DNA from: an uncultured virus (IMG/VR IMGVR_UViG_3300005437_000001)
Taxonomy: Duplodnaviria > Heunggongvirae > Uroviricota > Caudoviricetes
DNA: 20,000 bases
Reading direction: 5' to 3' (one strand)
Virus record (IMG/VR): IMGVR_UViG_3300005437_000001
Positions 8 through 15,871 of the stretch are shown here, piece after piece. How positions within the stretch are numbered: the stretch's first letter is position 1; every line of letters starts with the position of its first letter. The translations under genes and the position numbers were made by a program. Under the pieces are notes generated by a model, which had not been told where the DNA came from, ran no database searches, and saw nothing but the letters and a program-made list of their open reading frames with translations.

Positions 8-520
8 ATGCTGGAGCAGCTGGCCCTGCTGGAGCGATTCGACGGCGACCGCCGCCCGCTGGTGTTCGAGCCGGTGGCTACCGACACGCTGACCCAGGTG
101 TCCGAGGTCGGCGGGACGCTGCGGTCCCTGCTGCCGGTGCGCGGGTACCCGGACGACGCCGGGCTGGACCTGATCGTGAGCACCGACACCGAGGTACCGG
201 CGGGCGCGTTCGTCGACGTGCCCAGCGGAGTCAAGGTGGACCTGCCGCACGGGACGTGGGCGATGATCACCGGTCGCTCGTCGTCGCTGCGGCGCCGGAA
301 CCTGCTGGTCAGCACCGGAGTCATCGACGCCGGGTGGACCGGCGAGCTGTTCGCCGGGGTCAAGAACCTAGGCGATACGGACACCGTGCTGGCGGCGGGC
401 GACCGGATCGCCCAGCTGATCCTGCTGCCCGCGCCGGTCGTGGACTACGTGCCGCGCTGGGGGCAGGTCCGCACCGACAAGTCGCGCGGCGTCAACGGAT
501 TCGGGTCGAGCGGTGCCTGA
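8..520 (+). CDS. dut: dUTPase (trimeric type); frame is open to the window edge so it may extend 5'
   Basis: Motifs AGLDL, GRSS, GVIDAGWTGE, RIAQLI and C-terminal RGVNGFGSSG. Confidence 0.93.
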   Translation: MLEQLALLERFDGDRRPLVFEPVATDTLTQVSEVGGTLRSLLPVRGYPDDAGLDLIVSTDTEVPAGAFVDVPSGVKVDLPHGTWAMITGRSSSLRRRNLLVSTGVIDAGWTGELFAGVKNLGDTDTVLAAGDRIAQLILLPAPVVDYVPRWGQVRTDKSRGVNGFGSSGA

Positions 521-1723: not shown

Positions 1724-1752
1724 TTGACCGCCTGGCAAGAGGGGGGTGTACT
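1724..1752 (+). promoter_or_regulatory. class I promoter/operator
   Basis: TTGAC-cgcct-GGCAA 1724-1738; TTGACC-N17-TGTACT 1747-1752; GGAGGAGG before ATG 1773. Confidence 0.65.
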
Positions 1753-2932: not shown

Positions 2933-2941
2933 AGCATAGAC

Positions 2942-2983
2942 GGCGGCGCCCCGGACCCGTGGTGGGAGGTCTGGGGCGCCGCC
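2942..2983. terminator. probable bidirectional terminator hairpin
   Basis: 16-bp stem (one G-U) ggcggcgccccggacc/ggtctggggcgccgcc between convergent genes. Confidence 0.75.
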
Positions 2984-3011
2984 TTGCCGGTCTCTGGGCG
3001 GTACCAGTGTA

Positions 3012-3194
3012 TCAGTCGGAGACGACCAGCGTGAGCTTGCCCTTGGTGATCTTGCGGATGTCGGCCACCTGCAGGCCGTTCTGCGAGAACGCGGCCTCCA
3101 GGGCGGTCTGCATGCCCTCGGCGGTGTAGGGCTCGCCGTACAGGGCGGTGTCCTTCTCGTCGTCGGTCTCCACGACGATGGCGAATCTGGCCAC
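3012..3194 (-). CDS. 60-aa hypothetical protein (VARFAIVVET...)
   Basis: AGGAGG RBS before GTG; strong codon bias; upstream promoter. Confidence 0.8.
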   Translation of the reverse strand: MARFAIVVETDDEKDTALYGEPYTAEGMQTALEAAFSQNGLQVADIRKITKGKLTLVVSD

Positions 3195-3236
3195 GGTGTC
3201 CTCCTGGTGTGGTAGTGAGTGCCGCTGCACAGGACC

Positions 3237-3265
3237 ACGGTACACTACCCTTGTCAGTCTGGCAA
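3237..3265 (-). promoter_or_regulatory. class I-like promoter/operator variant
   Basis: Minus strand TTGCC-agact-GACAA; TTGCCA-N17-TACCGT. Confidence 0.6.
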
Positions 3266-3502
3266 GTCTCCCGGGCCGTCCGCGCACGGCTGCACGATGG
3301 TCCGGCCGCGCGGGGGCGGCGGTACGTCGGCGTCCTCGCGGGCGGCACAGCGCAGGGCGGCACGCGCGGACCGCCAGGTCGCCGCCGCCGCGTGGGCCAT
3401 CACGTCCGGATCCAGGGTGGACTCCCCCCTGACGTCCAGCTGGTCGGCGACGACCTCGACGCGGGGGCCGGAGTCGGACTCGTAGATCTTGACGGCGATC
3501 AA
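3254..3502 (-). CDS. hypothetical protein; start uncertain
   Basis: GAGG before TTG 3502; protein-like composition (IAVKIYESDSGPRVEVV...). Confidence 0.5.
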   Translation of the reverse strand: MIAVKIYESDSGPRVEVVADQLDVRGESTLDPDVMAHAAAATWRSARAALRCAAREDADVPPPPRGRTIVQPCADGPGDLPD

Positions 3503-3622
3503 GAGACCTCGATTCAGTGGTCGATATGGCATGGGAGGGGTGGCGCAGGACGGGCGCCACCCCACCACACTCCTTGCGCGGTCGTCCAGTGCTACCCACC
3601 GTGCGGCTGGTACCATGGGAGC

Positions 3623-4072
3623 ATGGCAGCCAAGCCGACATCAGCCAAGCTGTACCAGACGCCGCAGGACTCCGGGCAGTCGCAGAGCGGCCCGGTGTAC
3701 GGCGCGGTACCCGCGCCGCAACCCTCTCAAGCCATGACCTTCGACCAGAGGTACCACCCGCACGCGGCGGCCGAGATGAACAGCGACATGCCGCTGCCAC
3801 CGACCGACCCCGACCCGCGCGTGCCGCCGGTAGGCGCCCGCGTGGTGCACCGCACGTCGGGTCAGGAGGGCGTGGTGACCGGGCACCGGCCGCACGGGTA
3901 CTCCGGCACGGCCGTGCCCCAGGTCGTGTGGGCGGGCGAGGATATGTCGTGGCCGCAAGGTGTGAGCGCCAACGCGTTGAGGGTGCAAGGGTCCGAGCCC
4001 TCCGATCTGTACACCGGGACCCAGTCGGCGGCGTCGATCCGGCCGCGCAACCGGAACACTGGAGCGCTGTGA
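3623..4072 (+). CDS. SH3-like paralog A (MAAKPTSAK...), probably leaderless
   Basis: TACCAT-N6-ATG; domain PPVGARVVHRTSGQEGVV...W.G...QG shared with 4072 and 6847. Confidence 0.75.
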   Translation: MAAKPTSAKLYQTPQDSGQSQSGPVYGAVPAPQPSQAMTFDQRYHPHAAAEMNSDMPLPPTDPDPRVPPVGARVVHRTSGQEGVVTGHRPHGYSGTAVPQVVWAGEDMSWPQGVSANALRVQGSEPSDLYTGTQSAASIRPRNRNTGAL

Positions 4073-4344
4073 TGTCGAATCCCGCATACTCCCCGGACGG
4101 CGGCGCCAGCGTGCCCAGGTCCAGCCGGGACAGCGAGCGGCAGACGCCCCGGGGGGTGGGCGGTACCGCGCTGCCCGCCATCGGGTCCCGCGTGCGGCAC
4201 CGCCTGAGCGGACAGACCGGCCAGCTGGTGGACTACCAGCGCGACCCGTTCCTGAAGGACGTGGCGCACGGTATCGTCAACTGGACCGGCGACGGCGACG
4301 GGTTCGGCCAGGGCTACGCCGACACCAACCTGATCAAGTTCTGA
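4072..4344 (+). CDS. SH3-like paralog B
   Basis: TGATG coupling; LPAIGSRVRHRLSGQTGQLV...W.G...QGY. Confidence 0.75.
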   Translation: MSNPAYSPDGGASVPRSSRDSERQTPRGVGGTALPAIGSRVRHRLSGQTGQLVDYQRDPFLKDVAHGIVNWTGDGDGFGQGYADTNLIKF

Positions 4345-4444
4345 GGGTTGGTTTCACGGGAAACGCGGTTGCGCTGCCGGGAAGCGGCGCGCTAGAGTGG
4401 TGGCAGATGGGGAAGGACCGGGCGCTGTGGCAGGCGCTCAGGCC

Positions 4445-4478
4445 GCGACCCCCGCACCTGGCACGGTGCGGGGGTCGC
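4445..4478. terminator. probable terminator hairpin
   Basis: Perfect 14-bp stem gcgacccccgcacc/ggtgcgggggtcgc just after the stop of the minus-strand operon. Confidence 0.8.
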
Positions 4479-4490
4479 AGTGTATCCGGG

Positions 4491-5103: not shown

Positions 5104-5340
5104 TCACCAGCGGGCCCACAGCACCTTCAGGGTCTTGACGCTGGCGCGGTGGTCCTTGGGGTCCACCTCGGCCGTGTTCAGCGACCCGCTGTAGAGGTTG
5201 GTCAGCTGCAGCCGGGCCTCGACCATGGCGTCCTGGATCGTCTCGTAGCCGCCAGTCGTCCGGCAGCCCGCGAACACCCAGCGCCCGCCCGGGTTGTTGA
5301 AGCTGACCTCGGTGCCCTCGATCGTCCTGGTCTCGGCCAT
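5104..5340 (-). CDS. hypothetical protein (MAETRTIEGT...)
   Basis: First gene after a class I promoter; codon bias. Confidence 0.8.
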   Translation of the reverse strand: MAETRTIEGTEVSFNNPGGRWVFAGCRTTGGYETIQDAMVEARLQLTNLYSGSLNTAEVDPKDHRASVKTLKVLWARW

Positions 5341-5359
5341 CGCCCTGTCCCTTCGTCCG

Positions 5360-5413
5360 GCGGCCGGTCGGCCGCTCTATTACTAGTAAACCACCCCCTT
5401 GACCGTCTGTCAA
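5360..5413 (-). promoter_or_regulatory. class I promoter cassette
   Basis: Minus strand TTGAC-agacg-GTCAA (5413-5399); TTGACA-N17-TTTACT; hairpin gcggcc/ggccgc. Confidence 0.85.
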
Positions 5414-5441
5414 GTTCAAGGTTGACGTTGGTCAGGACCAC

Positions 5442-5471
5442 TTGCGCCCCTGCGAAGCGGCGGGGTACGGT
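5442..5471 (+). promoter_or_regulatory. putative promoter of the RNA cassette
   Basis: TTGCGC-N18-TACGGT; six nt later the first hairpin begins at 5478. Confidence 0.55.
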
Positions 5472-5477
5472 GGGTGT

Positions 5478-5577
5478 GTGCCCGGTCCGGCGGCCTCCCC
5501 GATCCGCCGGGGGCACGGCCCGCCAGCAGGCGGCCGGACGGCGCCACCCCCCCGCCCCGTCCGGCCGCCGGTCTGGC
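5478..5577 (+). ncRNA. 6C-like RNA (two adjacent GC-rich hairpins with C-rich loops)
   Basis: Hairpin 1 5478-5516 with loop CCTCCCCGAT; hairpin 2 with 13-bp stem 5529-5541/5557-5569 and loop containing C7 (5547-5553); no credible ORF. Confidence 0.6.
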
Positions 5578-5579
5578 AG

Positions 5580-5663
5580 GGGAGCTGTGGCGCAGCGGCC
5601 AGCGCGTCGAGCCAACAAGCGGTAAAGGCTCGAAGGTCCCGGGTTCGAACCCCGGCGCTCCCA
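5580..5663 (+). tRNA. tRNA-like element with non-canonical anticodon arm; isotype not assignable
   Basis: Acceptor GGGAGC/GCTCCC with an extra T; D arm GCGC-AGCGGCCA-GCGC; T arm CCGGG-TTCGAAC-CCCGG; anticodon arm is a 7-bp stem plus 13-nt loop; no encoded CCA. Confidence 0.8.
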
Positions 5664-5760
5664 CCGTTCGACAGCAGGAGGCAGCAGCCTGGACGCGTAA
5701 CCGTGGTCGCACACACGGCGATAGTCTGGCCGGGCACCACACCGGTCTGCGAACGAGTAC

Positions 5761-5795
5761 CCGGCCCGGTGCTGCCGAGAGGCGCACCGGGCCGG
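5761..5795 (+). terminator. strong hairpin (terminator or structured RNA end)
   Basis: 12-bp stem ccggcccggtgc/gcaccgggccgg capped by gcc-GAGA-ggc. Confidence 0.55.
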
Positions 5796-5820
5796 TGTCA
5801 TCCGCGCTGGGAGGTGCGCC

Positions 5821-6222
5821 GTGAGACCGAATGTCCGACCGTGGCCGGTGATGGTCGTGTGGCTGATGCTGCTGGGCAGCTGGTGGGTCGTGCGGGTCCT
5901 GTGCTGGGAGCTGCCCCGGCTGGCGTGGGACCTCGTATCCGCCCGGTGGGATTGTCAGGCGGTCAAGCCGCGTGATGGAGTTCCGGCATGGACGAGATCA
6001 TACCCGGAGACGAGAGAGAGTGGGTCGCCGCCGCACAGGCGGGGGACCCTGACGCGTTCGGCCGGATCTACAGCGCCACTGTCGGGCGGGTGCGCGGGTA
6101 CGTGCGGGTGCGGTGTCGGACCCCGGCCGACGCCGAGGACACGGTACAGGACGTTTACCTCAAGGCGTGGCGCAGTATCGGTTCGTATTCGCATGAGCGG
6201 CCGATCGTCGCGTGGCTGGTGA
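5821..6222 (+). CDS. possible membrane protein; 3' part overlaps the sigma gene
   Basis: GGAGGT RBS before GTG; hydrophobic Trp-rich N-terminus. Confidence 0.4.
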   Translation: MRPNVRPWPVMVVWLMLLGSWWVVRVLCWELPRLAWDLVSARWDCQAVKPRDGVPAWTRSYPETRESGSPPHRRGTLTRSAGSTAPLSGGCAGTCGCGVGPRPTPRTRYRTFTSRRGAVSVRIRMSGRSSRGW

Positions 6223-6560
6223 CGATAGCACACAACCGCCTGGCCGACCAGGCCCGGGTGGGCGCGCGCCGCCGGGCGATCGCGGACGTGGCGGTGGGGC
6301 TGGAGGGGGTCGAAGTCGAGCTGGTGTCGGACCGGTGTCCGGGGCCGGAGGATAGGATGCTGATGCGCGAGGAGGCGTCGGCCGCCGTGTCGCTGCTGCG
6401 GGGGATACCGCTGCGGCGGGCGGCCGTAGTGGCGATGACGGCCGACGGATGGTCGACCGAGGAGATAGCGCAGGCGGTGGGGTGCAGCGAGAGCGGAGTC
6501 AGGGGTCTGAGATTCAGGGCGGTCGAGGCGGTGCGCGCCCGTGTCCAGACGGTGGTGTGA
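5988..6560 (+). CDS. ECF (sigma-70 group 4) sigma factor, BldN/AdsA-like
   Basis: Region 2 AQAGDPDAFGRIY...DAEDTVQDVYLKAW...AWLVTIAHNRLAD; region 4 HTH GWSTEEIAQAVGCSESGVRGLRFRAV. Confidence 0.92.
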   Translation: MDEIIPGDEREWVAAAQAGDPDAFGRIYSATVGRVRGYVRVRCRTPADAEDTVQDVYLKAWRSIGSYSHERPIVAWLVTIAHNRLADQARVGARRRAIADVAVGLEGVEVELVSDRCPGPEDRMLMREEASAAVSLLRGIPLRRAAVVAMTADGWSTEEIAQAVGCSESGVRGLRFRAVEAVRARVQTVV

Positions 6561-6789
6561 GCAGACCGGCAAGTACAAGTACCCGACCGAGCTGGAGGCC
6601 CAGCTGGCGCTGCTGGACATACACTTCAGGCTGCGCAACGAGGATCAGAAGATCGAGCGGGTGACCTGTGCGACGCATCCGTGCGATCACTGCGGCCTGT
6701 GGCATCTGACCGGCAATAAGCCGGACGGCAAGTACCGGAGGGGATTGGGCGATGCCATCCGCCCGGACTGGCGTCCGGGCGGGGGGTAA
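6541..6789 (+). CDS. small Cys/His (probable Zn-binding) phage protein
   Basis: C..TGK.KY.T..EA...CDHCGLWHLT pattern. Confidence 0.75.
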   Translation: MSRRWCEQTGKYKYPTELEAQLALLDIHFRLRNEDQKIERVTCATHPCDHCGLWHLTGNKPDGKYRRGLGDAIRPDWRPGGG

Positions 6790-6846: not shown

Positions 6847-7146
6847 GTGGACACTGGTGACAGCCTGGCCTACGACTCGTACCTGGGCGGGATGAACCCG
6901 GGGTCCAGTTACAGCGGCCAGCCGAACATCAAACCGACCGACCGCGCCGACATGGCGCTGCCGAAAGTGGGCGCGAGCGTGCGCCACGCCAAGAGCGGCG
7001 AGAGCGGCACGGTTGTCGGGCACGTGCGCCACGGCTACTCGGCCGAGCGGCTGCCCGTGGTGAAGTGGAACGGCCAGCCGGGCGGTCCCGGGGACGCTCC
7101 CCCGTCGCAGGGGTACTCGCTCGACAGTTTGACAAACCCGACATGA
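6847..7146 (+). CDS. SH3-like paralog C
   Basis: LPKVGASVRHAKSGESGTVVGH...W.G...QGY. Confidence 0.78.
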   Translation: MDTGDSLAYDSYLGGMNPGSSYSGQPNIKPTDRADMALPKVGASVRHAKSGESGTVVGHVRHGYSAERLPVVKWNGQPGGPGDAPPSQGYSLDSLTNPT

Positions 7147-7203: not shown

Positions 7204-7361
7204 GACCAGCTTCAGGCTGTGGGGAAGCAGCCGGGGCCGGAGCGGCCCAGAGTGCGCGCATGCCGGATGCCGACCTGTGGCCGGGACGACGGTCAGGAGA
7301 CTGGTCGAGGCGGGACAGCCCGCAAGTCGAGACCCCCGGTGGCCGAAAGCACGGGGGCCTC
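7204..7361 (+). ncRNA. candidate structured ncRNA
   Basis: TATACT 7193-7198; closing helix GACCAG 7204-7209/CTGGTC 7301-7306 enclosing several hairpins; two further hairpins to 7361. Confidence 0.45.
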
Positions 7362-7378
7362 GGCGCTATAATGACGGA

Positions 7379-7612
7379 GTGAGATACCCCTTTGACGAGT
7401 GGCTGGACGGCCGGGAGTGGACCCTGGTCCGGCCGCGCGACTTCACCGGTCCGGCCGAGACGATGGTCCACAGGCTCAGGAGTGCCGCCGCCGCCCGGGG
7501 CCGCACTCTGACCGCCGACATCCAGCCCGGCGGCAAGTTCATCACGATAAGGTCCGAGGCCAGGACCGTGGTCAGTGTTCAATCGGAGACGCAAGCGGGA
7601 GGGGTGGCGTAG
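7379..7612 (+). CDS. small hypothetical protein (VRYPFDEWLDGREW...), probably leaderless
   Basis: TATAAT-N6-GTG; abuts the next gene. Confidence 0.75.
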   Translation: MRYPFDEWLDGREWTLVRPRDFTGPAETMVHRLRSAAAARGRTLTADIQPGGKFITIRSEARTVVSVQSETQAGGVA

Positions 7613-8176
7613 GTGACCGAGACGATCGACGACGAGCCGCCGCCCGGGTTCCTCAAGAGCCCGGCGGCGATCGCCCGGTGGAACCGCGAGAAGGCCCAGA
7701 AGCGGTGGCTGCGGCAGCAGGCGTACGACCTGCGCAAGACCAACCACTCGCTGGCGCAGATCGCGGCGATCCAGGGCTGCACGATCGCCACGGCCCGCAA
7801 GCGGTACGAGCAGGCGATCAAGGAGTACGTTCCGGAAGAGCTGATCAAAGAGATCCGCGCGATGGAGCTGGACCGGTACGACGCCCTGCAGCAGACACTC
7901 CTGCCGATGATTGAGGAGCGCCGTCGGCTCAAGGATGTCGATGGGTTTATGAAGCTGTTCAACGGGTACCTGTCGGTGAGCGACCGGCGGATCAAGCTGA
8001 CGGGCGCGGCGGCGCCGGTCCAGGTTAGGATCGACGGCACCATCGTGCAGGAGTCCGAGCAGGACCGGGAGCTGAAGCGGCTGATCAAGGACGCCGAAGA
8101 GGTAAACCGGGAGTTCGACCGGATGGCGTCGGCGGCCGGAGCGCAGGACGAGGAGCCATGGACGTCAGGAAGCTGA
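7613..8176 (+). CDS. HTH protein, probable terminase small subunit
   Basis: HTH AYDLRK..HSLAQIAAIQGCTIATARKRY, then ELDRYDAL...DRRIKLTGAAAP as in actinophage TerS-like proteins; GGAGG RBS. Confidence 0.7.
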   Translation: MTETIDDEPPPGFLKSPAAIARWNREKAQKRWLRQQAYDLRKTNHSLAQIAAIQGCTIATARKRYEQAIKEYVPEELIKEIRAMELDRYDALQQTLLPMIEERRRLKDVDGFMKLFNGYLSVSDRRIKLTGAAAPVQVRIDGTIVQESEQDRELKRLIKDAEEVNREFDRMASAAGAQDEEPWTSGS

Positions 8177-13309: not shown

Positions 13310-13687
13310 ATGACAGGCGGTCAACTACCGACCTCTGGGTGGCTGCTGCCGCCGGGCGACCCGGACTCGGTCACCTTGACGGTGGTGCCCACGGTCGGCC
13401 GATGGGCCACCGCCCCCGATGTCCGCCCGGCGTACGTCGGCGAGATGGTGCACCTGGCGCGGCCGGACGGGTCGTGCTGGTCCGCGCTGGTGACGCAGCT
13501 GCACGACGACCCGGACCGGGACCCGGTCTACGGACGCCACGTCGGCCTGACCGTGTTCCGTCCGCCCGCGTTCGCCAGGAACAGCCTGATCACCGAGGCG
13601 GTCGACCGCACGGCATTCGACGGACACGGCGCGCCCGGCACCTGGCACCACGTGGACACGTGGCCCGTCCACCGGTCGCACCAGTAA
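13310..13687 (+). CDS. hypothetical phage protein (VG..VH...A.VT...L.VF.P...GTWH type)
   Basis: Recurring phage small beta-barrel pattern; GC3 bias. Confidence 0.72.
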   Translation: MTGGQLPTSGWLLPPGDPDSVTLTVVPTVGRWATAPDVRPAYVGEMVHLARPDGSCWSALVTQLHDDPDRDPVYGRHVGLTVFRPPAFARNSLITEAVDRTAFDGHGAPGTWHHVDTWPVHRSHQ

Positions 13688-13696
13688 AATACTGGC

Positions 13697-15367
13697 GTGA
13701 CGGTAACCGAGGACGCCACCTCTCTCAATTTCGGCGACAGCGATTCAGTAGGGTCGACTGACGCGGGAGGGGTGGCGTACCTGGCCGGGCTCACATCTAC
13801 CGACCTGAACCCGCAGGCGTACGTCACCCGGCATCACCCCAAGCTACTCAAGTCGCCCGAGGGCCGCCGCGCCCTGACCAAGTACGACCCCCTCCTGTTC
13901 GCCCTGCTGTATCTGCGCCACCATCTGCGGGCGCCAGCCACGAGAAACCGGATCACCCTTTGTGACGCGCACCTGGAGTGGTGCCAGCAGGCACTGCAGC
14001 GGGTGCTGACTCCGGCCCTGCGGCCACGGCAGAACCGGGACGCCTACGTCGCCCCGCGTGAGACTGGCAAGTCGACGTGGCACTTCCTGATCCTGCCGCT
14101 GTGGGAGGCGGCGCACGGGCACCGCAAGTTCATCGCCGCCTTTGCCGACTCGGGCACCCAGGCGGAGATGCACCTGCAGACGTTCAAGAACGAGCTGGAC
14201 ACCAACACCCTGCTGAAAAGGGACTTCCCCGACCTGTGCGAGCCCGCCGTCCGGGCGCGCGGGATGACGCTGTCGGACACCAAGGGCCTGACGATCCGCA
14301 AGTCGGGGTTCGTGTTCGGGGCGCGCGGCGCCGACTCCAAGACCCTGGGCATGAAGGTCGGCCACACACGGCCGGACAAGCTGATCCTGGACGACATCGA
14401 GCCGGGCGAGGACCAGTACAGCGAGTACCAGATCGAAGGCCGTCTGAACACGGTCACCGATGTCATCATGCCGCTGAACGAGTACGCCGACGTGGTGATC
14501 TCGGGCACGGTGACCATGCCCGGCTCGATCGTGCACCAGCTGGTCAAATCGGTCACGGAGCCGGACGAGGAGCACCCGGAGTGGATCCGGGAGCAGAACA
14601 TACGGGTGCACTACCACGCCCCGATCATCGTCGCCGACGACGGGTCGGAGCGCTCCATCTGGCCCGCCAAGTGGCCGCTGGACTACCTGCTGGGGATCCG
14701 GCACACGCGGTCGTATCTCAAGAACTTTGCCAACAGCCCGATGGGCCTGGATGGGGACTACTGGTCCAAGGACGACTTCGAGTATGGGTCGCTGCCGTTC
14801 AAGACCAAGGTGGCGCTGTCGATCGACCCAGCCGACAAGACCAAGAAGACCAGCGACTGGACCGGGTTGGCCGTGGTCGGCTGGATGCCGCCGCCCAGGA
14901 AGGACCCCCGGCGCCAGACCACTGATGCCGAGGACATCACGGCCATGATATTCGGCAACCTGGGCGCGTGCGAGGTCATGCACGCCGAGCAGGTCAAGCT
15001 GGTCGGAGAGCGCCTGCGCCAGAAGGTGCTGCAGATCCTGGAGGCGTTCCCGGAGATCGGCCTGGTCGTGGTCGAGGTCAACAAGGGCGGCGAGCACTGG
15101 TACGACATCCTGCACCATCTGCCGTGCAAGATCCAGCTGATCGACTCCACCATCGACAAGCGGGTGCGGGCAGCGCACGCGCTGGCGCACTACCAGCGCC
15201 ACCGGGTCAAGCACACCCAGCGCATGTCGGCGCTGGAGGAGCAGATGGTCGGCTTCCCCAAGGCTCCGAACGACGACATGGTGGACGCCGTCGGCGCGCT
15301 GGTCACCAGGTTCCTGCGCCGACCTGAGGCCAAGCCCGGCGTGCGCGCCGTGGGCGGATACGCGTAG
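13697..15367 (+). CDS. terL: terminase large subunit
   Basis: Walker A APRETGKST, Walker B LILDDIE, nuclease motifs SIDPA, DWTG and FPKAPNDDMVDA. Confidence 0.95.
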   Translation: MTVTEDATSLNFGDSDSVGSTDAGGVAYLAGLTSTDLNPQAYVTRHHPKLLKSPEGRRALTKYDPLLFALLYLRHHLRAPATRNRITLCDAHLEWCQQALQRVLTPALRPRQNRDAYVAPRETGKSTWHFLILPLWEAAHGHRKFIAAFADSGTQAEMHLQTFKNELDTNTLLKRDFPDLCEPAVRARGMTLSDTKGLTIRKSGFVFGARGADSKTLGMKVGHTRPDKLILDDIEPGEDQYSEYQIEGRLNTVTDVIMPLNEYADVVISGTVTMPGSIVHQLVKSVTEPDEEHPEWIREQNIRVHYHAPIIVADDGSERSIWPAKWPLDYLLGIRHTRSYLKNFANSPMGLDGDYWSKDDFEYGSLPFKTKVALSIDPADKTKKTSDWTGLAVVGWMPPPRKDPRRQTTDAEDITAMIFGNLGACEVMHAEQVKLVGERLRQKVLQILEAFPEIGLVVVEVNKGGEHWYDILHHLPCKIQLIDSTIDKRVRAAHALAHYQRHRVKHTQRMSALEEQMVGFPKAPNDDMVDAVGALVTRFLRRPEAKPGVRAVGGYA

Positions 15368-15812: not shown

Positions 15813-15871
15813 GGGGGCGGCCAGCCCGCCCCCACAAGACAATCAAACCACGTTAATTGACCGTCTGTCAA
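15813..15871 (-). promoter_or_regulatory. class I promoter cassette
   Basis: Minus strand TTGAC-agacg-GTCAA (15871-15857); TTGACA-N18-TTTGAT; hairpin gggggcgg/ccgccccc. Confidence 0.85.

What the first reader, a model, noticed from the sequence alone, without database searches (positions are those of the whole stretch)
5442..6560. Candidate host-development module: 6C-like sRNA + tRNA-like element + BldN-like sigma factor on one strand
Seen: a predicted start (TACGGT-N6) lands exactly on a two-hairpin C-loop RNA, followed within 2 nt by a tRNA-like cloverleaf, more hairpins and then an ECF sigma gene. Known: 6C RNA and sigma-BldN are both linked to differentiation in Streptomyces, and RNase P cuts at the 5' end of tRNA-shaped RNA. 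Inference: the phage carries a compact RNA-plus-sigma cassette that reprograms host development or dormancy, with the anticodon-less tRNA acting as a processing signal (as mascRNA does for MALAT1) that releases the sRNA. I know of no description of this arrangement in phages.
Basis: partly seen in the sequence, partly recalled or inferred. Interest (0 to 1): 0.85.

Follow-up and report, generated by a model that had tools for sequence, protein, structure and literature searches.

The report
Anticodon-less tRNA relic before phage sigma gene
An uncultured Streptomyces-type phage has turned the initiator-like tRNA gene its relatives keep at this spot into a tRNA-shaped RNA with no anticodon, preceded by two C-looped hairpins and followed by an accessory sigma-factor gene; nothing links the set to host development.

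Summary
All the described features are present. These are a promoter-like TTGCGC-N18-TACGGT, two very stable hairpins with C-rich loops, a cloverleaf two bases later (Rfam tRNA 40 bits, no usable anticodon loop), further hairpins, and an ECF-type sigma gene.

The labels hold less well. The hairpins share 6C's architecture, but the 6C covariance model gives no hit on them even at E<=10. No C-loop hairpin lies in the 260 nt upstream of tRNA-Met in any of 14 relatives' loci. The sigma passes only the general ECF model. BldN is its top family at 72 bits, against a cut-off of 206.

Context explains most of it. In about eight related uncultured phages the same slot holds a real tRNA-Met(CAU), between a divergent promoter and a conserved 99-aa gene. 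Sigma is an optional insert: it occurs in three relatives among the loci sharing that gene, and in two more distant phages without tRNAs. It has its own operator-like element and a leaderless-type promoter.

My reading is a remodelled tRNA slot whose cloverleaf probably still directs RNase P cutting, beside an accessory phage sigma. It is not a host-development cassette.

One open lead: hairpin loop 2 carries a 9-base complement to a 13-base ribosome-binding motif that is repeated in the genome, in eight copies as part of a two-part element.

The parts
5399..5413 (.). 15-bp element TTGACCGTCTGTCAA (inverted TTGAC/GTCAA) in the divergent promoter region. Its leftward half is a -35-like TTGACA for the minus-strand gene 5104-5340.
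   Evidence: 3 exact and 3 two-mismatch copies in the 20-kb window, 0 expected in 200 shuffles. GTCAAGT is conserved at this place in G001, G005 and L032.
5442..5471 (+). Promoter-like TTGCGC-N18-TACGGT. The predicted transcript start is near 5478.
   Evidence: Sequence. The -10 box is positionally conserved in 4 relatives. It is not called by the E. coli-type consensus scan. The start site is inferred.
5477..5518 (+). Leader hairpin 1, loop CCUCCCCGAU (5494-5503). The loop contains the anti-Shine-Dalgarno-like CCUCC.
   Evidence: The 5' arm GCCCGG..CGGCGGCC matches G001 at 14 of 16 bases by my own count on the alignment.
5522..5577 (+). Leader hairpin 2. Inner stem of 13 perfect pairs (5529-5541 / 5557-5569), loop CGCCACCCCCCCGCC (5542-5556).
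   Evidence: the genome's only C7 run. The loop holds a 9-nt perfect complement of the repeated GGGGTGGCG motif.
5580..5665 (+). tRNA-derived cloverleaf without an anticodon. It has a perfect D arm, T arm and T loop UUCGAAC, a 7-bp anticodon stem with a 13-nt loop, and an acceptor stem of 6 pairs plus a bulged U. The 3' end reads ACC.
   Evidence: Rfam RF00005, 40 bits, at 5581-5663. Default ARAGORN finds nothing. With the intron option it gives a forced tRNA-Phe(AAA) with a 10-nt 'intron' at 33/34. The MFE fold is a cloverleaf.
5665..5824 (+). Trailer. It holds a predicted four-way junction (5665-5755), a 15-pair terminator-like hairpin without a U tract (5761-5795), and a hairpin (5798-5824) that encloses the GGGAGG at 5810-5815 and the GTG at 5821.
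   Evidence: These are predictions only, and there are no Rfam hits at E<=10 other than chance-level ones.
5821..5987 (+). Possible small membrane-protein ORF (GTG 5821, one hydrophobic segment). Its frame runs on to 6222, overlapping sigma. Unresolved.
   Evidence: GC3 is 0.9 in this frame for 5820-5940. In the overlap, substitutions against L042 fall mostly on sigma's third codon positions (12 of 26, versus 6 of 26 for this frame; my count). No Pfam or PHROG hit.
5952..5981 (+). Second copy of the 15-bp element (TTGTCAGGCGGTCAA, 2 mismatches), followed by a -10-like TGGAGT 6 nt before the ATG. This is a candidate promoter of sigma's own, of the leaderless-mRNA type.
   Evidence: G001 and G004 show the same geometry (a hexamer 6-7 nt before the ATG). 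Inferred.
5988..6560 (+). ECF-type sigma factor, 190 aa.
   Evidence: Pfam r2 and r4_2. PHROG 1740. TIGR02937 scores 61.3 against a cut-off of 42.9. PDB ECF sigmas at E about 1e-13.
6541..6789 (+). 82-aa Cys/His-rich (zinc-ribbon-like) ORF overlapping the end of sigma by 20 nt.
   Evidence: Homologues follow sigma in L042 and G004 and occur in L045. PHROG 3424, function unknown.
6847..7146 (+). Conserved 99-aa gene that marks the downstream edge of the slot in all relatives.
   Evidence: (50-64% identity; 90% in L042).

Best explanation
Bases 5399-5987 are this phage's version of a conserved, non-coding 'tRNA slot' that is transcribed early by host RNA polymerase.

In related uncultured actinophages the order is: a divergent promoter pair, then a structured leader of 65-150 nt that is not conserved in sequence, then a real and often initiator-like tRNA-Met(CAU). 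Optional extra tRNAs and genes follow, and then a conserved 99-aa gene.

Here the tRNA has been remodelled. Its anticodon loop is expanded to 13-17 nt and one base is inserted in the acceptor stem, so it cannot decode. Its D arm, T arm and acceptor/T stack are intact.

I infer the following, none of it shown. The primary transcript starts near 5478. Host RNase P cuts at 5579/5580, and the usual 3' enzymes trim near 5663-5666. This releases a leader of about 100 nt with two very stable C-looped hairpins, plus an inert tRNA-shaped RNA. The cloverleaf therefore survives as a processing and stability module rather than as a tRNA.

The two hairpins are specific to this lineage. They are an analogue of actinobacterial C-loop sRNAs such as 6C, not a homologue.

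The ECF sigma gene, with its zinc-ribbon partner ORF, is an accessory insert between the slot and the 99-aa gene. It carries its own copy of the phage's 15-bp TTGAC-N5-GTCAA element and a leaderless-type promoter. It therefore belongs to the same early regulon but is not part of one RNA cassette. Its most likely job is timing of phage transcription, not control of host development.
For: Phage identity:
- dUTPase, sigma, terminase, portal and DNA polymerase are present.
- The terminase is 47-52% identical to those of Streptomyces phages.

The slot:
- ARAGORN finds tRNA-Met(CAU) upstream of the 99-aa gene in 6 of the 10 IMG/VR loci that carry that gene (12 loci scanned) and in 8 of 14 metagenome loci.
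- That is about 8 distinct phages. I judged duplicates between the collections from equal contig lengths and coordinates and did not align them.
- The -10 box and the GTCAAGT element are at the same places in these relatives.

Likeness to tRNA-Met:
- The four best pairwise identities of the cloverleaf are all to relatives' tRNA-Met (61-64%).

The cloverleaf:
-.

A second case:
- G001 has an independent anticodon-less tRNA-like element of 99 nt (39.9 bits), with perfect acceptor, D and T arms, lying between its tRNA-Met and tRNA-Ile.

Sigma is optional:
- tblastn finds it in G001, G004 and L042 only among the loci carrying the 99-aa gene.
- G005 and L032 go from tRNA-Met straight to the 99-aa gene.

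Sigma's own control elements:
-.

Non-coding status:
- No frame shows a coding GC3 signal across 5400-5800.
- 0 of 6 mechanical ORFs across this stretch hit Pfam.

RNase P on tRNA-like RNA in an actinobacterium:
- Passages I read in PMC4201824 show that M. smegmatis YrlA is cut by RNase P, and that a 7-bp acceptor stem is a major determinant.
Against:
- The only other copy of the RNA region is 100% identical. The 85%-identical relative L042 is cut off at window base 6007. Covariation on the hairpins and cloverleaf therefore could not be tested.
- Descent from tRNA-Met rests on position plus modest identity. G001's and L032's tRNA-Met are only 55-57% identical, below G005's tRNA-Asn at 59%.
- The acceptor stem has a bulge, or two mismatches in Rfam's register. 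This could impair RNase P cutting.
- The intactness of three arms is also what one expects of a recent pseudogene.
- The promoter is not called by the consensus scan.
- Sigma could still be read through from the upstream promoter, because the 5761-5795 hairpin has no U tract.
Confidence: 0.5

Rival explanations
1. Anti-ribosome-binding-site sRNA. The RNase P-released leader is a working regulator. Its two C-rich loops pair with the phage's own repeated G-rich start-region motif (GGGAGGGGTGGCG) and set the timing of translation of about ten phage genes. It works like 6C but is aimed at phage messages.
For: - The bipartite element TTCA[GA]T-N12-15-GGGAGGGGTGG(C/T)G occurs 8 times, all on the + strand. 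It accounts for 8 of the 10 TTCA[GA]T on that strand, and lies in front of terminase, the phrog_645 gene and others.
- Loop 2 holds a 9-nt perfect complement (CGCCACCCC), and loop 1 holds CCUCCC, the complement of GGGAGG.
- The predicted duplex of loop 2 with the 7593-7613 site is -32.5 kcal/mol.
- GGGGTGGCG and its complement occur 6 times in the window, against 1.13 expected; 0 of 200 shuffles reach 6.
- At 3537-3563 the motif is followed 9 nt later by its own perfect complement, giving an in-cis hairpin.
- Passages I read in PMC6486639 show 6C acting through C-rich loops on G-rich ribosome-binding sites without a chaperone.
Against: - Given the loop's own composition, 3.1% of shuffles of loop 2 reach a match of 9 nt or more, and 18.5% of shuffles of loop 1 reach 6 nt or more. 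C-rich against G-rich pairing is therefore cheap.
- Relatives carry a variant motif (GGGAGGGGTGGTG; 4 forward copies in G005, 2 in G001) with no anti-motif in their leaders.
- There is no expression data.
Confidence: 0.15
2. A 6C-like sRNA, a tRNA-shaped processing signal and a BldN-like sigma act together to reprogram host differentiation or dormancy.
For: - The architecture resembles genuine 6C RNAs that I fetched from 6 actinobacterial genomes: two adjacent hairpins with C-rich loops of about 9-12 nt by my reading of the folds.
- BldN (TIGR02952) is the top-scoring NCBIfam family for this sigma and for G001's.
- tRNA(-like) elements and sigma are adjacent in this phage, G001 and G004.
Against: - RF01066 gives no hit on the hairpins at E<=10. 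The genome's best 6C-model hits (17.3 and 13.3 bits, cut-off 47) lie elsewhere.
- BldN scores 72 bits against a cut-off of 206.45. G004's sigma is closer to SigY and ShbA.
- The three parts are unlinked in most relatives.
- No host target is identified.
Confidence: 0.07
3. Decoy or sponge. The anticodon-less cloverleaf, and the similar one in G001, is kept because it binds tRNA-directed host factors without being consumed. Such factors include anticodon nucleases, toxins that cut initiator tRNA, and modification or processing enzymes.
For: - There are two independent anticodon-arm-remodelled cloverleaves with otherwise intact arms in one phage group.
- The relatives invest in an initiator-like tRNA-Met at this site.
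- This is an inference from general knowledge of tRNA-targeting defences; no call tests it.
Against: - No partner is identified.
- No conservation data exist for this element.
- The acceptor-stem defect argues against tight mimicry.
Confidence: 0.08
4. Integration-site remnant. The cloverleaf is a copy of a host tRNA gene kept as attP, or picked up by imprecise excision.
For: Phage att sites often overlap tRNA genes (general knowledge).
Against: - Both halves of the cloverleaf are present, not only the 3' part.
- An exact search of 185,579 species genomes with 24 nt of the variable loop plus T arm gave 16 loci in unrelated taxa and none in Streptomyces.
- No integrase appeared among the ORFs I scanned, though the record is only about 55% complete.
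- The slot holds phage-type tRNAs in relatives.
Confidence: 0.03

Closest known systems
Phage-encoded tRNA genes and arrays of actinophages, here the tRNA-Met(CAU) slot of the related uncultured phages
   Same: - Same genomic position, with the same promoter geometry and flanking genes.
- Cloverleaf with a canonical D loop (GG) and T loop (UUCGAAC).
- Passes the Rfam tRNA cut-off.
   Different: - There is no 7-nt anticodon loop and no anticodon.
- The acceptor stem has a bulge.
- It cannot be a decoding tRNA.
6C RNA (Rfam RF01066) of Actinomycetota
   Same: Two adjacent GC-rich hairpins with C-rich apical loops. The mode of action could be the same, with C-loops pairing to G-rich ribosome-binding sites (PMC6486639, passages read).
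   Different: - No covariance-model match.
- The stems are longer.
- It is not a free-standing gene with its own end; it is the 5' leader of a tRNA-like element.
- It is absent from relatives.
YrlA / bacterial Y RNA-like RNAs (PMC4201824; passages read)
   Same: A tRNA-mimicking non-coding RNA, found in actinobacteria and mycobacteriophages. The M. smegmatis form is cut by RNase P.
   Different: - No YrlA hit in the Rfam scans.
- No Ro60/TROVE gene among the window's ORFs.
- In YrlA as I recall it, the RNA ends lie in the Ro-binding stem. Here the ends are at the acceptor stem, as in a normal tRNA.
tRNA-shaped processing signals: mascRNA at the MALAT1 3' end, tRNA punctuation of mitochondrial transcripts, tRNA-mRNA operons such as tufB (recalled; from no call)
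   Same: A cloverleaf inside a longer transcript that would define ends through RNase P and 3' enzymes.
   Different: Processing here is only inferred. The element is explained more simply as a remodelled resident tRNA than as a purpose-built signal.
ECF sigma factors; BldN family (TIGR02952)
   Same: Two-domain sigma with regions 2 and 4. BldN is the top NCBIfam hit.
   Different: - 72 bits against a cut-off of 206.45.
- Several other ECF families score nearly as well.
- It is phage-encoded, with a zinc-ribbon-like ORF overlapping its end.
Start-associated sequences (SAS/ESAS) of Cluster K mycobacteriophages (PMC3203893; passages read)
   Same: This comparison is for the repeated GGGAGGGGTGGCG motif. 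Both are 13 nt, one-orientation, contain a Shine-Dalgarno core, lie a few bases before start codons, and have an upstream second element in a subset.
   Different: - The sequence is different.
- The upstream part is TTCA[GA]T at 12-15 nt, not a 17-bp inverted repeat.
- The motif also occurs before structural genes such as terminase.

Membership tests
6C RNA (RF01066) | Match to the family covariance model at or above its gathering score (47 bits) | tested here: not met
   There is no 6C hit on 5340-6000 at E<=10. The whole-genome search gives only 17.3 and 13.3 bits, both elsewhere. The model does find genuine 6C at 47.6-92.4 bits in 5 of 121 Actinomycetota genomes. One caveat: the control C. 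glutamicum rings only below the cut-off in this pipeline.
6C RNA (RF01066) | Two adjacent hairpins with C-rich loops | tested here: met
6C RNA (RF01066) | Conservation of the element among relatives | tested here: not met
   0 of 14 relatives' loci have a C-loop hairpin in the 260 nt upstream of tRNA-Met, by my own criteria. The closest relative, L042, is truncated and could not be tested.
tRNA (RF00005) | Covariance-model score at or above 29 bits; cloverleaf with conserved D- and T-loop bases | tested here: met
   40 bits, model positions 1-71 of 71.
tRNA (RF00005) | 5-bp anticodon stem with a 7-nt loop carrying U33 and an anticodon | tested here: not met
   Rfam's alignment shows 16 bases where the model has 6. 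Default ARAGORN finds nothing. Only a forced model with an 'intron' at 33/34 and anticodon AAA can be fitted.
tRNA (RF00005) | Uninterrupted 7-bp acceptor stem | tested here: not met
   Two mismatches in Rfam's register, or 6 pairs plus a bulged base when read from 5580.
ECF sigma factor (TIGR02937; Pfam Sigma70_r2 + r4_2) | Regions 2 and 4 present; score above the superfamily cut-off | tested here: met
   In one search, 61.3 bits against a cut-off of 42.9.
BldN family (TIGR02952) | Score at or above the curated cut-off of 206.45 bits | tested here: not met
   72 bits. Neighbouring families score 60-67 bits.
BldN family (TIGR02952) | Control of developmental (chaplin/rodlin/bldM-type) promoters | not testable with these tools
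   The host is unknown and there are no promoter data.
YrlA / Y RNA-like | Rfam match and a Ro60 gene within a few kb on the same strand | tested here: not met
   No YrlA hit. No TROVE domain in 30 window ORFs.
tRNA-like processing signal (mascRNA type) | RNase P cleavage at the 5' end of the cloverleaf in vivo | not testable with these tools
   No read data were available.

The most novel reading that the evidence does not exclude
The leader is a phage-made 'anti-start-site' RNA. RNase P cutting at the tRNA relic frees a two-hairpin RNA. Its loops are antisense to the phage's own 13-nt start-associated motif, GGGAGGGGTGGCG. Eight copies carry an upstream TTCA[GA]T; they lie before terminase and other genes. 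The first 16 nt of the relic itself match the motif plus CAG at 14 of 16 positions. The early transcript would thus gate translation of later genes. That would supply the trans-acting RNA partner which the Cluster K SAS paper left open as a possibility (PMC3203893, passage read).
Probability: 0.12. Interest if true: 0.75.

Novelty: new variant of a known kind. Interest (0 to 1): 0.4.

Why it matters
If the reading is right, it shows how a phage tRNA gene can lose decoding yet persist as an RNA-processing module. A second independent example exists in the same phage group, so such 'anticodon-less tRNAs' may be a recurrent class that standard tRNA finders skip.

It also shows that a C-loop, 6C-style RNA architecture can arise in a phage leader without descent from 6C.

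The practical value is modest. For annotators of actinophages: Rfam-positive, ARAGORN-negative cloverleaves in tRNA slots deserve a label. An ECF sigma next to RNA genes should not be read as a host-development device without promoter data.

The open lead, loops antisense to a repeated start-site motif, would bear directly on the unsolved function of start-associated sequences.

Tried and rejected
Searches that gave nothing useful:
- blastn of the locus and of the whole window against 50,697 phage records gave no match.
- tblastn of sigma against the same records gave one 26% hit in a faecal phage.
- Single-protein and DNA-pattern scans of IMG/VR found only a 100%-identical contig.
- The notebook of earlier findings has nothing for this genome or sequence.

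Host-tRNA or attP origin: an exact 24-nt T-arm pattern in species genomes gave 16 loci in unrelated taxa.

tmRNA: ARAGORN finds none. The permuted-tmRNA hit of 14.6 bits covers just the T arm.

Intron-bearing tRNA: ARAGORN's intron mode gives tRNA-Phe(AAA) with a 10-nt insert at 33/34, and tRNA-His for G001's element. I rejected both because the positions and anticodons are non-canonical. From general knowledge, no short-intron splicing is known in bacteria or their phages.

Protein coding across the RNA region:
- 0 of 6 ORFs hit Pfam, and there is no GC3 signal.
- I considered a frameshift fusion of ORF 5821 to sigma. An in-frame TGA at 5973-5975 and the lack of a slippery site argue against it.

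A second tRNA between 7147 and 7612, where relatives have Ser, Gln or Asn: none at E<=10.

The repeated motif as a sigma-dependent promoter: the variant motif is also present in G005, in which the sigma search found no homologue at E<=0.01. It is not tied to sigma.

Expression, and binding of those two proteins, therefore remain open.
Full report
**What the window is.** The window lies in an IMG/VR virus record of 42,127 bases, estimated about 55% complete, with 68.5% G+C. It encodes dUTPase, a sigma factor and large terminase. Outside the window it encodes DNA polymerase, portal and a PurZ-like enzyme. The terminase is 47-52% identical to those of Streptomyces phages such as PHTowN, Yara and Gibson. 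There is no nucleotide match among 50,697 phage records. The host is therefore inferred to be a streptomycete or a near relative.

- Promoter: TTGCGC (5442-5447), an 18-nt spacer, and TACGGT (5466-5471).
- Hairpins: from 5477 two hairpins follow. The 104-nt leader folds at -69.1 kcal/mol, z = -2.99, and 1 of 200 shuffles folds as well. Loop 1 is CCUCCCCGAU. Loop 2 is CGCCACCCCCCCGCC on a stem of 13 perfect pairs.
- Rarity: by a scan of my own, C-loop hairpins occur at 7 places on the two strands of the genome. These two are 48 nt apart, and loop 2 holds the genome's only C7 run.
- Cloverleaf: two bases after hairpin 2, Rfam's tRNA model scores 40 bits against a cut-off of 29 at 5581-5663, with 16 bases where the anticodon loop should have 6. 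ARAGORN finds no tRNA. With introns allowed it forces a tRNA-Phe(AAA) with a 10-nt insert at 33/34.
- Fold: the minimum-energy fold is a cloverleaf with 6 acceptor pairs plus a bulged U, a perfect T arm, a 7-bp anticodon stem and a 13-nt loop. Its D arm is drawn in another register than Rfam's 4-pair GCGC arm.
- Downstream: a predicted four-way junction (5665-5755), a 15-pair hairpin (5761-5795) and a hairpin over an SD-GTG (5798-5824).
- Sigma: the ORF 5988-6560 has Pfam regions 2 and 4.
- Non-coding: 0 of 6 mechanical ORFs across the RNA stretch hit Pfam, and no frame shows a coding GC3 pattern there.

**The two family labels do not hold as memberships.**
- 6C: the covariance model gives nothing on the hairpins at E<=10. 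Its best genome hits (17.3 and 13.3 bits, cut-off 47) lie elsewhere.
- The same model finds genuine 6C at 47.6-92.4 bits in 5 of 121 Actinomycetota genomes. The control C. glutamicum stays under the cut-off in this pipeline, which is a caveat on sensitivity.
- Side by side, genuine 6C RNAs and this leader share the architecture of two adjacent GC-rich hairpins with C-rich loops. It is an analogue, not a detectable homologue.
- Passages I read in PMC6486639 say that C-rich loops occur in 9 of 25 verified M. tuberculosis sRNAs. The design is common in high-GC bacteria.
- Sigma: it passes only the ECF superfamily model (61.3 against 42.9). BldN is the top family at 72 bits against a cut-off of 206.45, with other ECF families at 60-67 bits. 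G004's homologue is nearer SigY and ShbA.

**Relatives explain the layout.**
- Terminase relatives, sigma relatives and relatives of the conserved 99-aa gene at 6847-7146 define a group of uncultured phages.
- ARAGORN finds tRNA-Met(CAU) upstream of the 99-aa gene in 6 of the 10 IMG/VR loci carrying that gene (12 loci scanned) and in 8 of 14 metagenome loci. This is about eight distinct phages. I judged duplicates from equal contig lengths and did not align them.
- Several of the loci without it are cut off just upstream of the gene.
- Several of these tRNAs look initiator-like, with CGCGGGG... and a GGG/CCC anticodon stem.
- Upstream of them the GTCAAGT element and a -10 box (TACGGT, TAGAGT or TAGGAT) sit where they do here. 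They are followed by structured leaders of 65-150 nt that are not alike in sequence.
- The cloverleaf is most like these tRNA-Met. The four best identities (61-64%) are all to tRNA-Met. However, G001's and L032's tRNA-Met reach only 55-57%, below G005's tRNA-Asn at 59%.
- G001 has the order leader, tRNA-Met, a 99-nt tRNA-like element, tRNA-Ile(UAU), sigma. The tRNA-like element has perfect acceptor, D and T arms but a roughly 43-nt anticodon arm (39.9 bits).
- G004 has tRNA-Ile(UAU), then sigma, then the zinc-ribbon ORF.
- G005 and L032 go from tRNA-Met straight to the 99-aa gene.
- Two more distant sigma carriers, L026 and L028, have no tRNA nearby.
- 0 of 14 tRNA-Met loci have a C-loop hairpin in the 260 nt upstream.
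- The slot is therefore conserved, the sigma is an optional insert, and the C-loop leader is private to this phage and its identical twin contig.
- The one close relative, L042, is 85.5% identical in DNA and 84.6% in sigma, but it starts at window base 6007 and cannot speak to the RNA region.

**Sigma has its own control elements.**
- The 15-bp element TTGACCGTCTGTCAA occurs 3 times exactly and 3 times with two mismatches in the window, against 0 expected.
- One copy is in the divergent promoter region (5399-5413). Another lies 21 nt before sigma's ATG (5952-5966).
- Behind the latter, a hexamer ending 6 nt before the ATG gives the geometry of a leaderless mRNA. G001 and G004 show the same geometry.
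- I infer that the RNA locus and sigma share an early regulon but are separate transcription units. Read-through is not excluded.

**The most likely mechanism.** Host polymerase starts near 5478. RNase P cuts at 5579/5580 and 3' enzymes trim near 5663-5666. The products are a leader of about 100 nt with two hairpins and a non-decoding tRNA-shaped RNA. All of these steps are inferred. The support from outside is that M. smegmatis YrlA, a tRNA mimic, is cut by RNase P, and that a 7-bp acceptor stem is a major determinant (PMC4201824, passages read). The bulge here may weaken the cut.

**An open lead.**
- The genome carries eight + strand copies of TTCA[GA]T-N12-15-GGGAGGGGTGG(C/T)G. They account for 8 of the 10 TTCA[GA]T on that strand, and lie before terminase, the phrog_645 gene and others.
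- This resembles the start-associated sequences of Cluster K mycobacteriophages, whose partner is unknown (PMC3203893, passages read).
- Loop 2 contains a 9-nt perfect complement of the motif, and loop 1 contains the complement of GGGAGG.
- The 13-base motif matches the cloverleaf's 5' end with two mismatches. Adding the CAG that follows several motif copies gives 14 of 16 by my own count.
- Against it: 3.1% of shuffles of loop 2 and 18.5% of shuffles of loop 1 do as well. Relatives with a variant motif have no anti-motif in their leaders. I rate this at about 0.12-0.15.

**Earlier notes of this scan.** A look-up by words returned unchecked notes on other genomes. One describes a phage early operon with 'a tRNA-shaped RNA with no anticodon'. 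Another describes small GC-rich inserts in anticodon loops. These are leads that such elements recur, not evidence.

**Literature.** Five full-text searches turned up no description of an anticodon-less tRNA relic with a C-loop leader beside a phage sigma. I read only listings and the passages cited, and I opened no supplementary files.

**Verdict.** The host-development cassette reading is mostly unsupported. The locus is a remodelled tRNA slot next to an accessory ECF sigma. That is a new variant of known kinds, of moderate interest, with one testable and more novel possibility.

Noticed in passing
window 1724-1738, 2502-2516, 5399-5413, 5952-5966, 13310-13324, 15857-15871: The 15-bp near-palindromic element TTGACCGTCTGTCAA occurs 3 times exactly and 3 times with 2 mismatches, against 0 expected. 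By my reading, most copies lie in gaps between predicted genes or just before gene starts. It is a likely operator and/or a shared -35 pair of an early regulon.
   Followed up: partly
window 3513-3545, 7578-7609, 13744-13777; five more copies in the genome outside the window: Bipartite repeat TTCA[GA]T-N12-15-GGGAGGGGTGG(C/T)G: 8 copies, all on one strand, a few bases before start codons (terminase, the phrog_645 gene and others). It resembles the start-associated sequences of Cluster K mycobacteriophages. In relatives, a variant GGGAGGGGTGGTG sits at gene junctions.
   Followed up: partly
window 7327-7363: Conserved hairpin GACCCCCGGTGGCCGAAAGCACGGGGGTC between the 99-aa gene and the phrog_645 gene. 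The apical bases are almost invariant in 8 sequences, and 6 of 14 pairs show compensatory changes. In G005 it lies a few bases before tRNA-Asn. Its loop contains GCCGAAAG, which fits the short GNCGAAN0-1G motif of YrlA RNAs (PMC4201824). No YrlA hit or Ro60 gene was found, so this may be chance.
   Followed up: partly
L016 1734-1832 (G001:C1:37926-38024): A second, independent anticodon-less tRNA-like element: perfect 7-bp acceptor, D and T arms, and a roughly 43-nt anticodon arm. It scores 39.9 bits with Rfam tRNA and is missed by default ARAGORN. It lies between tRNA-Met and tRNA-Ile, upstream of G001's sigma.
   Followed up: partly
G005:C1:13073-13429; G130:C1:20608-21046; G132:C1:46304-46679; G001:C1:17523-17806: Tandem runs of weak tRNA-model hits (16-26 bits) in relatives; in G005 the run sits beside a real tRNA-Asp. 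They may be arrays of degenerate tRNA-like elements.
   Followed up: no
L089 1353-2594 (-), outside the window: A 413-aa protein matches PHROG 1211 (PurZ-type 2-aminoadenine pathway enzyme) at E = 3e-76, beside a dUTPase at window 8-520. The phage may replace adenine in its DNA.
   Followed up: no
window 3537-3563: One copy of the GGGGTGGCG motif is followed 9 nt later by its perfect 9-nt complement, giving a hairpin that would hide that start region. It lies in a 1.5-kb stretch (2933-4490) with no ORF passing my GC3 filter.
   Followed up: no
window 5821-6222: An ORF with a GGAGG 6 nt upstream, one hydrophobic segment and a coding-like GC3 for its first 40 or so codons. Its frame overlaps sigma by 235 nt. 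The overlap evolves under sigma's frame when compared with L042. Whether it is a real small membrane protein is open.
   Followed up: partly
window 6541-6789: An 82-aa Cys/His-rich ORF overlaps sigma's stop by 20 nt. It is conserved after sigma in L042 (83%) and G004, and is present in L045.
   Followed up: partly
window 5665-5755: The stretch directly behind the cloverleaf is predicted to fold into a second four-way junction of 91 nt. It has no tRNA-model hit at E<=10. It could be the ghost of a further tRNA, since G001 has three in a row.
   Followed up: no
window 7613-8176: A 187-aa protein of PHROG 645 (labelled 'RNase E') is conserved next to the tRNA slot in many relatives, 27-48% identical (90% in L042). 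It has no NCBIfam hit and only one weak, below-cut-off Pfam hit. A role in processing the neighbouring RNAs is conceivable.
   Followed up: no
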